DNA of 16,302 nucleotides. Origin: a virus. Location of the stretch: the UHGV virus genome UHGV-0148496; one strand, 5' to 3'. Within the stretch, counting starts at the first letter, position 1. Each line of letters starts with the position of its first letter. The position numbers are program-made. This document shows positions 6,001 through 9,000 of this stretch, one piece after another.

Positions 6001-9000
6001 CGCCTGCTGGAAGTCATCGAACAGATCGGGAGTTACTCAAAGCAGATTCGTTCGGCAATCGAAGATGGGGTAGTGGAGCCACACGAGCAGACAGCAATTA
6101 ATGATGAGTTGTATCTGTCAATTTCGAAGCTCCAGGAGCATGCAGCACTGGTCTACAAAATCTTTTGCGCTCCAGAAAAGAGTGACGCCCGCGAGTGTGC
6201 AGCTCCGGGCGTCGTGGCGTTTTGTGTCTGTGGAGAAACTAACGCATGAATAGTTTAACGGCAAATAACCGTTTGTCGCAACAGCTGGTGGTCAGCGTCG
6301 CTGAACACCTGTTGTTACGGCATGAATGCAGATTACCAAATCACCTGGCTGTAAGTAACCACAGAGAACTTTACCTGACTGTGGGGGGCGAGTTGTGCAG
6401 GAACTTAACCGCTGGTTTCGTGACGGAAGAGGACTTTATGTTCATGTTATTCGTTGGGAGCCAGAAACACAGCGCGTTATCTATCTTCGCAAAGACTACC
6501 CGCATGAGTGCTTTAGTCCTTTGTGGAAATTCAGGCGTGATTTTGTTGAGTGTGAAGGACCACCAGCATATTGATTCTGCAATTCCGGGACGTTACACTG
6601 CTCAGGCACCTTATAAAGCGGGTGCCGGGCGTGGAAACCCGAAATTCAATATAGAGCACAACCGCGCTCATGCGGTTTTTTCGTGTCATGAGCATCGTTA
6701 CGCCCAAATTATGGTGGGGCGTGCAGGGCCAACTTCGGTTGGGCCGGGTTCTATGTTGACCGGTATTTCCACCCCTGTACGTCTCACCACCTATATGGTC
6801 GTGGAAAGCCTTGGTGGTGAGTTCATTGAATTCAACATAGGGGCTGTCACCATGACTACTCTCCCAACCCAATCTCACCCTGAAATCACGATTATCAATG
6901 GTCGCGTTGTCACCACATCTCTTGCAGTAGCTAATTACTTTACTAAACGGCATGAGCGGGTTTTAGATAGAATTAGAAACCTCGAATGTTCCGCTGAATT
7001 TACTGAACACAATTTTGTGTTAAGTGAATACACCGACGCATCAGGCCGCAAACTCCCTTGTTACCAAATCACCCGCGACGGTTTTGCGTTTCTTGCCATG
7101 GGCTTCACTGGTAAACGTGCTGCCCGGTTCAAAGAGGCATACATAAATGCCTTTAACCAGATGGAAAAACTGCTTTCAAAGCCATCCACGCTGAGCGATG
7201 CCGCAGATAACGCCAGCGTGCTTTACTCCCACCTGTCGGTAATCCACAAGGTCTGGCTGCAGCAGCTTTATCCCATGTTGGCAAAAGCCGAATCCCCGCT
7301 GGCTGTAAGTCTGTATGACCGCATCAACGACGCGGCGCTACTGGCCAGTCTCATAAATTTGTCGCTGAACCCTTCAGAGGTAAGGGGGCGTAAATGATCC
7401 GGAATATTTTCAAACGGTTTACCAATCATACTTTCCGTTGTCCTCGTCCGGGTCAGTGGTACACCACGCCTGCAGGGCATGTTCTACGTGTTAGCCTGGT
7501 TGACCGTGAATGTCAGAAGGTGATTTGTGAACCGCTGGGCCGTAATTACCGCGTCAGTATGCCGCTTATAGCCTTTTGCTCCGGAAAAAACATGAAGCAT
7601 CTCGGAGGTGCTGCATGAGTATGGAGTTGATGGTTAAAGCGATGAAAATTCGAGTGGGAAATCCATTGCGAAAACTGGTTCTGATTAAGCTGGCTGATAA
7701 TGCCAGCGATCAGGGTGAGTGCTGGCCCAGCTATCAGCATATCGCTGATCAGTGCGAGATTAGCAAACGTTCTGTGATGAATCATATTGCGGCCCTCTGT
7801 GAGTCCGGGCTGGTAAAAAAAGTCACCCGGAAAGGTGAAAAAGGTAACTCAAGTAATATCTATCTCCTTCATCTGGATGGTGCAGGAGATTCACTAGGGG
7901 GTAGTGCAAATAATTCACTATCTGGTGCAGCAAATTCACCAGGTAGTGCAGGAGTTGCACCAGGGGGTAGTGCAGGAGATTCACCCAGAACCAGTCACTC
8001 TTTTGAACCAGTCAAAGAACCAGTCAATGAACCAATAGCTGTTGGTGAATCTGCTGATGAGTCTGTGCGAGTTCGTTCAAACCGACCGGAATACTCTCCG
8101 GAGTTTGAGCAGGCATGGCTGGCATACCCCAAACGTGCTGGTGGCAATTCAAAATCTGCAGCCTTCAAAGCCTGGAAAGCCCGTTTGAATGAGGGGGTAA
8201 ACCCCGAAACCATGCTGGAAGGTGTGAAACGCTACGCGGGCTGGGTATCTGCGATGGGTAACAGCGGCACACAATTTGTGAAACAGGCTGTCACGTTCTT
8301 TGGTCCGGATCGTCATTTCGAAGAATCCTGGGAAGTTCCTGCGGTATCTGCAGCCAGACGCGAGGACCCGTACTTCAAAGCCAGTTACGACAACGTGGAC
8401 TACAGCCAGATCCCGGAAGGATTCAGGGGGTGATCATGAGTCTTTTGAATGAAGTTCAGAAATTCATTGAAGCCCATCCGGGGTGTACTTCCGGAGACAT
8501 TGCGGATGCTTTTGCAGGTTACTCACGGCAGCGCGTTCTGCAGTCAGCAAGCAAGTTACGTCAGAGTGGGCGTGTGGCTCACCGTTGTGAAGGAGATACA
8601 CGCAGACATTTCCCGCGCCTGACTGAGAGAGCACAGGAGCCGGAACCACAACCAGTTCGTGAAACCAGACCTGTGCGCAATTTCTGTGTCGGCACTAACG
8701 ACCCGCAGGTGATTTTGTGCCTGACTCGCCAGGCGGAAGAACTGGAGTCCAGGGGCTTATTCCGTCGAGCTGCAACGGTGTGGATGGAGGCATTCCGTGA
8801 AAGCCACTCCCAGCCAGAACGAAACAATTTTCTGGCGCATCGTGAGCGGTGCTTACGGAAAAGCAGCAAGCGCGCTGCATCGGGTGAAGAGTGGTATCTG
8901 TCAGGGAATTACGTGGGGGCTTAATGAGTAATAAATATTGCCAGGCGCTGGTGGAGCTGCGGAACAAACCAGCCCATGAACTGAAGGAAGTGGGCGATCA

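What the first reader, a model, noticed from the sequence alone, without database searches (positions are those of the whole stretch)
7879..8038. Iteron-like repeats inside the replication gene: candidate origin
Two imperfect palindromes of the form TCAC-(T/C)AGGGGGTAGTG-CA, several TTCAC-containing partial copies at ~22-bp spacing, and three direct GAACCAGTCA repeats all fall in the linker-coding part of the O-like gene. This mirrors lambda, where ori iterons lie inside O. No P/DnaC-like helicase loader gene follows in this window (the next genes are a regulator and an MTase), so the replication module may be atypical.
Basis: partly seen in the sequence, partly recalled or inferred. Interest (0 to 1): 0.5.

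Follow-up and report, generated by a model that had tools for sequence, protein, structure and literature searches.

The report
Replication origin inside phage initiator gene
The repeats are real DNA signals, almost certainly the phage's replication origin (five initiator-binding sites plus a very conserved neighbouring element) written into the floppy middle of the initiator gene, as in phage lambda; the gene also ends in a copy of a host restart-protein motif, which may explain why no helicase-loader gene is present.

Summary
The gene at 7615-8433 encodes a 272-aa lambdoid replication initiator: a winged-helix HTH_36 N-domain, a disordered linker and a helical C-domain. It is about 98% identical to SfV orf39 and to the Eru6-type Stx phage gene. 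The linker DNA holds five 15-bp dyad sites, GTGCA-N5-T(T/G)CAC, at 7880, 7904, 7925, 7946 and 7970 (spacing 24/21/21/24). Then come GAACCAGTCA repeats at 7988, 8005 and 8017. Synonymous-codon controls never reproduce the repeats (0 of 5000). In 81 related loci the same site is read in two reading frames and in both orientations. Other recognition-helix variants carry other dyad sites. The 35-nt element after the last site uses invariant codons (AGA 78/78, AGT 81/81), while the invariant N-domain peptide uses all synonymous codons. This is selection on DNA, with lambda-ori architecture. No loader or helicase gene exists in the window or in the whole SfV genome. The protein's last nine residues match the C-terminus of host DnaT. 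A sister gene with a different tail is followed by DnaC- and DnaB-like genes. No replication experiment exists.

The parts
7615..8433 (+). Replication initiator gene (272 aa; RBS GGAGG at 7604-7608). About 98% identical to SfV orf39 and to the gene in cdtI, mEp460, Stx2c phages and the Eru6-type phage Stx2a_WGPS2.
   Evidence: HTH_36, E 1.8e-11; phrog_270, E 1e-88.
7615..7878 (+). Coding region of the N-terminal winged-helix DNA-binding domain (aa 1-88). The predicted recognition helix is aa 51-64.
   Evidence: AF2 pLDDT 78-92. Foldseek hits are winged-helix proteins, including the DnaD N-domain. Across 81 loci aa 14-48 are nearly invariant and aa 49-64 are the variable part.
7880..7894 (.). 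Iteron 1, GTGCAGGAGATTCAC
   Evidence: The exact 15-mer occurs in the linker of 14 related loci and its reverse complement in 17.
7904..7918 (.). Iteron 2, GTGCAAATAATTCAC (the most degenerate copy)
7925..7939 (.). Iteron 3, GTGCAGCAAATTCAC
7946..7960 (.). Iteron 4, GTGCAGGAGTTGCAC (perfect 5-N5-5 dyad)
   Evidence: matches on both strands.
7970..7984 (.). Iteron 5, GTGCAGGAGATTCAC. It ends 2 nt before the common element, as the last iteron does in the related loci read (L033 is a possible 1-nt exception).
7987..8038 (.). Family-wide common element, AGAACCAGTCAC-TCTTTT-GAACCAGTCAAA-GAACCAGTCAAT-GAACCAATAG. The conserved core is about 35 nt. The 10-mers lie at 7988, 8005 and 8017, with a partial copy at 8029. 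The window has one more 12-nt unit than the family consensus. Proposed site of duplex opening and helicase entry.
   Evidence: Invariant codon choice over 81 loci. Present in at least 120 viral contigs, 113 of them inside the same N-domain gene family. Less stable than the gene mean in 81 of 81 loci and the least stable 40-mer in about 46 of 81. Its function is inferred.
8044..8056 (.). Inverted partial copy of an iteron half-site (GGTGAATCTGCTG). Probably fortuitous.
   Evidence: I1-I3. No comparable downstream copy in 80 of 81 related loci.
8095..8328 (+). Coding region of the helical C-terminal domain (aa 161-238), the partner-recruitment module of unknown fold.
   Evidence: AF2 helices 162-237, pLDDT 55-75. 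No Pfam, PDB or DnaT profile match. One of at least 7 interchangeable C-domains in the family.
8404..8430 (+). C-terminal tail SQIPEGFRG, 8 of 9 residues identical to the C-terminus of E. coli DnaT (SQIPPGFRG).
   Evidence: IPxGFRG is nearly invariant at the end of 105 full-length DnaT orthologues. The tail is associated with absence of phage DnaB-like and P-like genes.

Best explanation
Window 7880-8038 is the phage's origin of replication, embedded in the linker-coding part of its own initiator gene as ori-lambda is embedded in gene O.

Proposed mechanism:
1. The early rightward operon is transcribed and produces the 272-aa initiator.
2. Dimers of its N-terminal winged-helix domain bind the five dyad-symmetric iterons, GTGCA-N5-T(T/G)CAC. 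The sites are spaced 21-24 bp apart, about two helical turns, so they lie on one face of the DNA and would form an O-some-like nucleoprotein complex.
3. That complex destabilises the adjoining common element (7987-8038), which starts 2 nt after the last iteron and is the least stable segment of the gene.
4. The C-terminal domain and its tail bring a replicative helicase to the opened DNA. Relatives use a phage-encoded partner: lambda-P-like, DnaC-like, or DnaC-like plus DnaB-like. This phage encodes none and is proposed to use host DnaB-DnaC. It would do so through the terminal motif IPxGFRG that it shares with the host restart protein DnaT.

Shown here: the repeats are real. They and the common element are under selection as DNA. 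Iteron type differs with the recognition-helix variant. The architecture is conserved across Gammaproteobacteria. No loader or helicase gene is present. The tail matches the DnaT C-terminus.

Inferred: protein binding to the iterons, strand opening at the common element, and what the tail does.
For: 1. The gene is a phage replication initiator in a cI-cro-cII-Rha context. It is the only annotated replication gene in the complete genome of the viable phage SfV, where the only iteron cluster lies inside it.
2. The DNA repeat far exceeds the peptide repeat: 0 of 5000 synonymous-codon controls reach it.
3. In relatives from Pseudomonas, Enterobacter and Aeromonas the same 15-bp unit is read in two frames within one ORF, as GSAGDSP and as VVQEIHQ. 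This happens because the spacers are 6-9 nt long. It occurs in 30 of 43 loci that carry at least 3 such sites. The exact reverse complement, GTGAATCTCCTGCAC (read as GESPAP), replaces the unit in 17 loci.
4. Other recognition-helix classes carry other dyad iterons. VMRHI goes with GTGAC-N5-GTCAC, RSTVKxHIRE with GGGCrG..yGCCC, CSKSAVRNHI with TGCCr-N5-TGGCA, and DRSTVRKHIKQ with TGTAGGCC..AGCAC. Residues 14-48 stay nearly invariant.
5. Array geometry is conserved whatever the iteron sequence. The last spacing is 24 and the one before it usually 21. Two frame-shifting spacings, 23 + 22, sum to 45, which restores the reading frame.
6. Unit copy number varies between ~99% identical proteins of 242 to 302 aa, matching whole units where worked out (+22 aa = 66 nt, +30 aa = 90 nt, -22 aa).
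7. The common element uses invariant codons: AGA 78/78, AGT 81/81, CAC 69/69, TCT 76/76, GAA 79/79. The invariant peptide block GNPLRKL..GECWPSYQH uses all synonymous codons. The element is less stable than the gene mean in 81 of 81 loci.
8. The whole cis region is encoded in a disordered linker.
9. The C-domains are modular (at least 7 classes). The class representatives examined sit next to different partners. This matches the lambda O-P logic described in the literature.
Against: - No experiment exists: no binding, unwinding or replication data for any member. Searches of the held papers found none.
- The common element is only 57-60% A+T in this window and sits only among the ~10% least stable 40-mers of the window. 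That is far from the A+T-rich tract of ori-lambda.
- There is no DnaA box, IHF consensus or promoter to tie in known host factors.
- The N-domain and its iterons are adjacent on the DNA. Their co-variation could therefore partly reflect linkage rather than recognition.
- Variants with only 2 iterons (250 aa, seen on 64 contigs) or 1 iteron (242 aa) exist. Either few sites suffice or these prophages are defective.
- The role of the DnaT-like tail is a correlation across essentially two lineages. No partner of the DnaT tail was described in the two DnaT papers consulted.
Confidence: 0.8

Rival explanations
1. The repeats are initiator-binding sites, but they serve regulation rather than initiation. 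They could act as a transcriptional roadblock or autoregulator inside the gene, or as copy-control 'handcuffing' sites. The true origin would lie elsewhere.
For: Iteron-type initiators commonly also regulate their own genes (established plasmid biology). The DNA-level conservation shown proves function as DNA but does not say which function.
Against: SfV's complete 37-kb genome has no second cluster of the site, and the window has none either. Four to seven tandem dyads at two-turn spacing, abutting a conserved low-stability element in fixed register, is origin architecture. Autoregulatory sites normally overlap the promoter, and no promoter-like site lies in 7300-8600.
Confidence: 0.08
2. The conserved 35-nt block is mainly a recombination 'linker' that promotes exchange of N- and C-terminal modules among phages. 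It would not be an unwinding or helicase-loading element.
For: The module boundary lies exactly there. The GTGmA..TkCAC iteron class is joined to 8 C-domain classes. The window's C-domain class is joined to at least 6 iteron classes. In E. coli genomes the block alone matches other HTH genes (H50).
Against: Recombination uses identity but cannot maintain it. Complete codon invariance from E. coli to Pseudomonas, Shewanella and Aeromonas, while neighbouring invariant-peptide codons are randomised, needs purifying selection on the nucleotides. The fixed 2-nt register with the last iteron and the internal 10-mer repeats at +1 and +18 (then +30 and +42) point to a structural role. The two roles are not mutually exclusive.
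Confidence: 0.06
3. The repeats are only codon-level reiteration of a Gly/Ser/Ala/Pro-rich flexible linker, with no role as DNA.
For: The region does encode a repetitive peptide (GDSLGGSA / NNSLSGAA / NSPGSA / GVAPGGSA / GDSPRTS) that is predicted to be disordered.
Against: 0 of 5000 synonymous-codon controls reach the observed DNA repetition. Ser is always TCA in one half-site and AGT in the other. The same DNA unit encodes unrelated peptides in other frames and orientations in relatives. Codon choice is invariant in the common element.
Confidence: 0.02
4. The conservation acts on the mRNA. It could be a structured or ribosome-pausing element, or a frameshift signal controlling synthesis of the C-terminal domain.
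For: Conservation at synonymous sites cannot by itself tell DNA from RNA. Two relatives (L032, L035) read the block in another frame.
Against: There is no significant fold of the common element on either strand (z -0.25 and 0.03) and no credible Rfam match. The iterons occur in both orientations, which an RNA signal would not tolerate. L032 and L035 yield truncated or frameshifted products and look like pseudogenes.
Confidence: 0.03

Closest known systems
ori-lambda inside gene O of phage lambda (also P22 gene 18 and phage L gene 18 origins)
   Same: The origin lies within the initiator's own coding sequence, between the N-terminal DNA-binding domain and the C-terminal partner-binding domain. 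It has four or more tandem ~19-20-bp sites with internal dyad symmetry. Different phages have different iterons matched to different N-domains. A less stable region follows on the C-terminal side. The C-domain pairs with the downstream loader (literature summarised; parallels tested). Some relatives (L015, L046) appear, by eye against lambda O recalled from memory (not tested), to carry a lambda-O-type C-domain.
   Different: The sequence family is Pfam HTH_36, with no match to the lambda O family model at the thresholds used. The iterons are different. Instead of a strongly A+T-rich tract there is a 35-nt block with GAACCAGTCA repeats, conserved nucleotide for nucleotide across iteron specificities and host genera. 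There is no P gene. The tail resembles DnaT.
Iteron plasmids (RK2 oriV/TrfA, pPS10 RepA, F RepE, R6K pi)
   Same: An initiator binds tandem iterons spaced about two helical turns apart. An adjacent unwinding element carries short direct repeats. Host DnaB-DnaC is recruited by the initiator without a plasmid-encoded loader. These points are established knowledge, not tested here.
   Different: Plasmid iterons lie outside the rep gene. Plasmid Rep proteins have a two-winged-helix fold, and DnaA boxes are usually present. Here there is a single winged helix, the sites are intragenic, and there is no DnaA box.
Eru6 replication region of Shiga-toxin phages (Fagerlund et al. 2022, PMC8951638)
   Same: It is the same module. 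The reference phage Stx2a_WGPS2 (AP012537) is 97.9% identical over the gene (H25). A Rha/Ash gene and then an HTH_36 gene follow cI.
   Different: That paper classifies the region by gene content and states there is no knowledge of how Eru phages replicate. It mentions no iterons and no origin.
DopC/DopE, domesticated lambda O/P-like pair of Cellvibrionales and Oceanospirillales (Brezellec et al. 2017, PMC5509034)
   Same: An O-like protein with an HTH_36 N-domain and a DnaT-related C-terminal part. The same paper classifies the lambda O N-terminus as HTH_36 by HHpred.
   Different: DopC has no iterons and is not an origin. Its DnaT similarity is to the folded DnaT C-domain, and it has a P-like partner. 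Here the iterons are present, the folded C-domain shows no DnaT similarity, only the last nine residues match DnaT, and there is no partner gene.
E. coli DnaT (primosomal protein, replication restart)
   Same: The extreme C-terminus matches: SQIPPGFRG in DnaT and SQIPEGFRG here. The motif IPxGFRG is conserved in DnaT orthologues.
   Different: There is no other sequence or profile similarity. DnaT acts at abandoned forks through PriA and PriB, not at a sequence-specific origin.

Membership tests
Lambda-type intragenic phage origin (ori inside the initiator gene) | The cis-acting repeats lie within the initiator's own ORF, between the DNA-binding N-domain and the partner-binding C-domain. | tested here: met
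   The iterons (7880-7984) and the common element (7987-8038) fall in codons 89-142. The folded domains are aa 1-88 and 162-237, and aa 91-157 are disordered.
Lambda-type intragenic phage origin (ori inside the initiator gene) | At least three or four tandem iterons of about 15-20 bp with internal dyad symmetry, spaced about two helical turns apart. | tested here: met
   Five GTGCA-N5-T(T/G)CAC sites at spacings of 24, 21, 21 and 24 bp. Against 0.9 matches expected by chance, 8 were found.
Lambda-type intragenic phage origin (ori inside the initiator gene) | The repeats are constrained as DNA rather than as a by-product of the encoded peptide. | tested here: met
   Codon controls: 0 of 5000. 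Two reading frames in 30 of 43 loci, and both orientations.
Lambda-type intragenic phage origin (ori inside the initiator gene) | Iteron sequence differs between relatives in step with the initiator's DNA-binding domain. | tested here: met
   At least 7 helix/iteron pairs. Variation is concentrated in the predicted recognition helix, at 1.43 bits against 0.16-0.4 bits for aa 17-48. Caveat: the domain and the sites are physically linked.
Lambda-type intragenic phage origin (ori inside the initiator gene) | An A+T-rich, easily melted region lies next to the iterons. | tested here: inconclusive
   The adjacent element is less stable than the gene mean in 81 of 81 loci and is the least stable 40-mer in about 46 of 81. 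In this window it is only 57-60% A+T.
Lambda-type intragenic phage origin (ori inside the initiator gene) | The initiator's C-domain is matched to a phage-encoded helicase loader (P) or helicase encoded just downstream. | tested here: not met
   There is no loader, helicase or primase gene in the window from cI to Q, nor in the SfV genome. Relatives do meet the criterion.
Lambda-type intragenic phage origin (ori inside the initiator gene) | The fragment supports initiator-dependent replication, and the initiator footprints on the repeats. | not testable with these tools
   This needs a mini-replicon assay and footprinting. No published data were found.
Pfam HTH_36 (PF13730) initiator-type winged helix | Score above the curated gathering threshold. 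| tested here: met
   44.1 bits against a cut-off of 25, over aa 17-67.
Lambda O protein family proper (sequence family of lambda gpO) | A significant match to the lambda O N-terminal family model. | tested here: not met
   The Pfam scan at E <= 0.01 returned HTH_36, DnaD_N, B-block_TFIIIC and HTH_20 only. The relationship to lambda O is remote. It rests on HHpred as reported in PMC5509034 and on PHROG names containing 'O-like'.
DnaT (primosomal protein I), as annotated for the identical gene in phage 1720a-02 | Homology to the DnaT N-domain and to its three-helix C-domain (Pfam PF17948). | tested here: not met
   There is no Pfam DnaT hit. BLASTP similarity is limited to the last 9 residues. 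hhalign probability is 0.7%. The database annotation 'primosomal protein I' is not justified.

The most novel reading that the evidence does not exclude
Two linked readings go beyond 'another lambda-like origin'.

(a) The 35-nt block AGAACCAGTCACTCTTTTGAACCAGTCAA(A/T)GAACC is a universal strand-opening or helicase-entry signal for a whole superfamily of phage initiators across Gammaproteobacteria. It would be read either by the invariant sub-domain of the initiator (aa 14-48) or by a conserved host replisome component. It is independent of iteron specificity and of which loader is used.

(b) The terminal motif IPxGFRG, shared by host DnaT and by the loader-less initiators, is the short linear motif that recruits host DnaB-DnaC or another primosome component. 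In that case the phage would show which part of DnaT does this job in replication restart, a step that Ducos et al. 2026 describe as still unknown.
Probability: 0.3. Interest if true: 0.75.

Novelty: new member of a known kind. Interest (0 to 1): 0.45.

Why it matters
It gives a concrete, testable origin for a very common lambdoid replication module. The module is carried by SfV-type serotype-converting phages, cdtI and Stx2c/Eru6 Shiga-toxin phages. About half of complete E. coli genomes match at least part of the gene, and 897 of 5426 carry most of it. The one classification paper found says nothing is known about how these phages replicate.

The invariant 23-35-nt block is a practical search key. 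It located the origin in at least 200 phages and prophages of many genera.

The family also provides a natural table of matched recognition helices and dyad sites. At least seven pairs sit on an otherwise invariant scaffold, which is useful for studying winged-helix specificity and for building orthogonal replicons.

It is a clean example of a cis-acting DNA element overprinted on a disordered protein linker, read in two frames and in both orientations.

The DnaT-tail observation suggests a specific experiment on how DnaB-DnaC is recruited during replication restart.

Tried and rejected
- Sequence and profile searches of the Protein Data Bank, with the protein and with a C-domain alignment, found nothing meaningful. 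NCBIfam gave only sub-threshold HTH regulators.
- A profile comparison of the C-domain with DnaT was negative. I therefore dropped the idea that the C-domain is DnaT-like and kept only the tail.
- The AF2 model of the C-domain was too weak (pLDDT 55-75) for a fold assignment. The Foldseek hits concern the N-domain only.
- Rfam and single-strand folding of both strands gave nothing for the common element.
- The inverted half-site at 8044-8056, which could pair with iteron 5 around the common element, is not a family feature (found in 1 of 81 loci) and is treated as chance.
- The first two 10-mers of the common element do not change C to T together: CC 105, TC 36, TT 8, CT 6. I make no claim of concerted change.
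- There are no DnaA boxes, no IHF consensus and no sigma-70-like promoter in the gene.
- Literature searches by sequence string, by SfV orf39 and by HTH_36 found no description of this origin.
- The 2026 preprimosome paper and the 2014 DnaT structure paper assign no partner to the DnaT tail.
- 'Plasmid' records carrying the gene are circular phage-sized molecules with no plasmid replicon typing. They are suggestive, not proof of autonomous replication.
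Full report
**What is there**

The finding lies inside the ORF at 7615-8433 (+). This ORF has an RBS (GGAGG) at 7604 and encodes 272 aa. Its neighbours form a lambdoid early-right operon:
- cI-like repressor (4655-5347, minus strand)
- cro-like HTH protein
- CII/CP76
- Rha/Ash regulator
- a 74-aa ORF
- this gene
- PerC/YfdN-like protein
- Dam methylase
- a protein with only the LexA N-domain
- RusA, KilA-N, DUF968 and antiterminator Q

The protein scores as Pfam HTH_36 (aa 17-67, E 1.8e-11) and as PHROG 270 'replication initiation protein' (E 1e-88). Separate PHROGs cover the N part (aa 1-147) and the C part (aa 143-271).

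The gene is about 98% identical to orf39 of Shigella phage SfV. It is equally close to the corresponding gene of phages cdtI, mEp460, Ayreon, 1720a-02, many Stx2c phages and Stx2a_WGPS2. It is 100% identical to a prophage gene of E. coli TOE17. In all, 2689 of 5426 complete E. coli genomes match at least part of the gene, and 897 carry most of it.

Stx2a_WGPS2 is the reference phage for the 'Eru6' replication region of Shiga-toxin phages. The paper that defines Eru6 says nothing is known about how Eru phages replicate. It mentions neither iterons nor an origin.

**Check of the observation**

They resolve into two elements.

The first is an array of five 15-bp dyad sites, GTGCA-N5-T(T/G)CAC:
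- 7880-7894
- 7904-7918
- 7925-7939
- 7946-7960, a perfect palindrome (GTGCAGGAGTTGCAC)
- 7970-7984

The start-to-start spacing is 24, 21, 21 and 24 bp. The pattern gives 8 matches in the window, counting both strands, against 0.9 expected. None of 200 shuffles reaches 8. Only one stray site lies outside the cluster, at 6395.

The second element is a block at 7987-8038. It holds GAACCAGTCA at 7988, 8005 and 8017 and a partial copy at 8029.

The core has constant length, and the G/C-run spacer varies from 6 to 9 nt.

**DNA or peptide?**

I held the amino-acid sequence fixed and either permuted synonymous codons within the gene or redrew them from the phage's codon usage. The observed DNA repetition was never reproduced:
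- repeated 8-mer pairs: 37 observed, mean 1.4, maximum 13, 0 of 5000
- repeated 10-mer pairs: 19 observed, mean 0.3, 0 of 5000

Codon choice is position-specific. Ser is TCA in one half-site and AGT in the other. Ala is GCA in 7 of 9 linker codons but in only 4 of 20 elsewhere in the gene.

The comparative evidence is stronger. A scan of one genome per species returned 80 loci encoding relatives. They come from Pseudomonas, Aeromonas, Shewanella, Marinomonas, Erwinia, Xenorhabdus, Enterobacter and other genera.

In many of these loci the same 15-bp unit is read in two different frames within one intact ORF. It appears as GSAGDSP and as VVQEIHQ. This happens because two successive spacings are 23 and 22 bp, which together sum to 45 and restore the reading frame. 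It occurs in 30 of the 43 loci that carry at least three sites of this class.

The exact reverse complement of the window's iteron, GTGAATCTCCTGCAC, encodes GESPAP. It stands in for the iteron in 17 loci. A peptide repeat cannot behave this way. A dyad-symmetric protein-binding site can.

**Match between iterons and the DNA-binding domain**

AlphaFold gives a confident winged helix for aa 1-88, with the predicted recognition helix at aa 51-64. Residues 91-157 are disordered, and a helical domain spans 162-237. The nearest solved folds are winged-helix DNA binders, including the DnaD N-domain.

Across the 81 loci, residues 14-48 are almost invariant, with entropy of 0.16-0.40 bits. The recognition helix is the variable part, at 1.43 bits.

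Each helix class carries its own dyad iteron:

| Recognition-helix motif | Iteron |
|---|---|
| S(K/R)RSV(M/I)NHI | GTG(C/A)A-N5-T(T/G)CAC |
| SKRSVMRHI | GTGAC-N5-GTCAC |
| xRSTVKxHIRE | GGGC(A/G)G...(C/T)GCCC |
| CSKSAVRNHI | TGCC(A/G)-N5-TGGCA |
| DRSTVRKHIKQ | TGTAGGCC..AGCAC |
| GKRTVISHI | GTGCAAATGCTGCAC |

The array geometry is the same whatever the iteron sequence. The last spacing is 24 and the one before it usually 21. In the loci read, the last site ends 2 nt before the next element (L033 may be 1 nt).

The domain and its sites are adjacent on the DNA, so linkage contributes to this co-variation. Even so, change is focused on the recognition helix and on the sites, while the sequences on both sides stay fixed. 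That is the pattern expected of co-evolving specificity. The literature describes the same pattern for lambda, P22 and phage L.

Unit copy number also varies among ~99% identical proteins of 242, 247, 250, 272, 278, 286, 290, 294 and 302 aa. The differences I worked out (+22 aa = 66 nt, +30 aa = 90 nt, -22 aa) correspond to whole repeat units. One example is the 66-nt insertion in cdtI.

**The common element**

Immediately after the last iteron, every locus has AGAACCAGTCAC TCTTTT GAACCAGTCAA(A/T) GAACC. This holds regardless of iteron class and of C-terminal domain.

Codon use in this block is invariant:
- Arg = AGA in 78 of 78
- Ser = AGT in 81 of 81
- His = CAC in 69 of 69
- Ser = TCT in 76 of 76
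- Glu = GAA in 79 of 79
- Val = GTC in 73 of 78

In the same genes, the invariant peptide block GNPLRKLVLIKLADNA..GECWPSYQHIADQCE uses every synonymous codon. Arg, for example, is CGC 45, CGT 14, CGA 8 and AGA 8. So about 35 nt are held constant as nucleotides from E. coli to Pseudomonas.

Of those 120 contigs, 113 carry the block inside a gene with the same invariant N-subdomain. The other 7 are cut by a contig end or frameshifted.

The 10-mer sits at offsets +1 and +18 in essentially all loci. A third copy at +30 occurs in about half, and a fourth at +42 in a few. The window has three full copies.

The block is less stable than the gene mean in 81 of 81 loci, by +6.8 kcal/mol per 40 bp on average. 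It is the least stable 40-mer of the gene in about 46 of 81 loci. In this window it is only 57-60% A+T.

The block has no DnaA box, IHF site or promoter. It shows no significant single-strand fold and no credible Rfam match.

I interpret it as the place where the duplex opens and the helicase enters, the counterpart of the A+T-rich region of ori-lambda. That is an inference, and what reads the block is unexplained.

The block is also the junction at which modules are exchanged. One iteron class is found with 8 C-domain classes. The window's C-domain class is found with at least 6 iteron classes. Recombination can exploit such identity but cannot maintain it.

**How the helicase is obtained**

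The family has at least seven unrelated C-terminal domains. In the class representatives examined, the gene is followed by a partner gene:
- lambda-P-like (L006, L034)
- DnaC-like plus DnaB-like (L003, L029, and the loci encoding P0088 and P0057)
- DnaB-like alone (L044)
- DnaC-like alone (L007, L046)

P0057 is informative. It is 83% identical to the window protein and diverges only in the last ~25 residues, ending ...SDKLTF. It is followed by DnaC-like and DnaB-like genes.

The window gene ends ...VDYSQIPEGFRG and is followed by PerC-like and Dam genes. No helicase, loader or primase gene exists anywhere from cI to Q. None is annotated in the complete SfV genome either. There the only iteron cluster is in orf39.

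The last nine residues match the extreme C-terminus of E. coli DnaT, SQIPPGFRG, in 8 of 9 positions. IPxGFRG is nearly invariant at the end of 105 full-length DnaT orthologues, and x is the variable position there too. Nothing else in the protein resembles DnaT. The database label 'primosomal protein I' on the identical gene of phage 1720a-02 is therefore unjustified.

I tabulated tail against downstream partner for 73 non-redundant genes with enough downstream sequence.

| Tail | n | DnaB-like present | Lambda-P-like | DnaC-like only | None |
|---|---|---|---|---|---|
| IPxGFRG | 21 | 0 | 0 | 6 | 15 |
| Other | 52 | 25 (18 also with DnaC-like) | 16 | 1 | 10 |

The IPxGFRG motif occurs on two different C-domain backgrounds. 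This is a correlation over few independent lineages, not a proof. It suggests that the tail recruits host DnaB-DnaC or another primosome protein. The 2026 preprimosome structure paper states that how DnaT recruits DnaB/DnaC is unknown. The 2014 DnaT structure paper shows only a modest effect of residues 154-179 on ssDNA binding.

**Comparison with what is known**

The element works like ori-lambda. The parallels:
- an intragenic position in the linker-coding region
- dyad iterons at two-turn spacing
- N-domain specificity
- a less stable flank
- a modular C-domain matched to a loader

The differences:
- The initiator is HTH_36, with no match to the lambda O family model in the Pfam scan run here. 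HHpred is reported to place the lambda O N-terminus in HTH_36.
- The flank is a strictly conserved 35-nt block rather than an A+T-rich tract.
- This branch has no loader gene.

In recruiting host helicase without its own loader it resembles iteron plasmids. That comparison rests on established knowledge and was not tested here.

The verdict is a new member, previously unannotated, of a known kind. No held paper and no database record describes it.

**Limits**

Nothing here shows binding, unwinding or replication. Circular phage-sized 'plasmid' records that carry the module and have no plasmid replicon typing are compatible with autonomous replication but do not prove it.

Variants with one or two iterons exist, and their competence is unknown.

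The decisive tests are a mini-replicon assay, synonymous recoding of the iterons and of the common element, footprinting, and tail mutants in primosome-mutant hosts.

Noticed in passing
window 16255-16302: The 3' end of the window is a Nextera transposase adapter (CTGTCTCTTATACACATCT followed by GACGCTGCCGACGA...). This is untrimmed adapter at a contig end. It creates the artificial ORF endings ...VSYTHLTLPTILLV on the plus strand and MCIRDS... on the minus strand.
   Followed up: yes
window 8404-8430 (last 9 codons of the initiator gene): The tail SQIPEGFRG matches the C-terminus of host DnaT (SQIPPGFRG) in 8 of 9 residues. The motif IPxGFRG is conserved in DnaT orthologues. Among relatives it is associated with absence of phage DnaB-like and P-like genes.
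   Followed up: yes
window 6395-6409 and 8587-8601: Two isolated iteron-like sites lie outside the array. GTGCAGGAACTTAAC is in the Rha/Ash gene and is also present at the same place in SfV. GTGAAGGAGATACAC is in the PerC-like gene. They are probably chance matches, but they could be auxiliary initiator sites.
   Followed up: partly
window 9574-9900: A 108-aa protein consists only of a LexA DNA-binding domain (E 2.9e-19) and has no S24 peptidase domain. It would be an uncleavable LexA-like repressor encoded between Dam and RusA. Its function was not examined.
   Followed up: no
L032 (Erwinia rhapontici) and L035 (Pseudomonas bharatica), gene starting at 2501: In these two relatives the initiator gene is frameshifted within the iteron/common-element region (read as ...PEPVTLLNQSKNQS) and gives truncated products. 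They are likely decaying prophages or slippage errors in the repeats.
   Followed up: partly
proteins P0030 (250 aa, 64 contigs) and P0042 (242 aa): These near-identical E. coli and Shigella variants of the gene retain only two iterons or one iteron. Whether they still support replication is unknown.
   Followed up: no
window 13960-14673 and 15459-16298: Downstream of antiterminator Q, where Stx phages carry stx, lie an AraC-family regulator gene and a DUF1737 + SASA (sialate O-acetylesterase-like) gene. These are candidate moron cargo.
   Followed up: no
window 3570-4650: About 1 kb between the DUF2303 gene and the cI-like repressor gene was not examined. Only unexamined mechanical ORFs are listed there.
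   Followed up: no
KF030445.1 (phage 1720a-02) and LR595862.1 (phage 2H10) records: The identical gene is annotated 'primosomal protein I' in one record and 'Primosomal protein DnaD domain' in the other. The first label appears to rest on the 9-residue DnaT-like tail alone. A DnaD_N match is sub-threshold here (24.3 bits against a cut-off of 27).
   Followed up: yes
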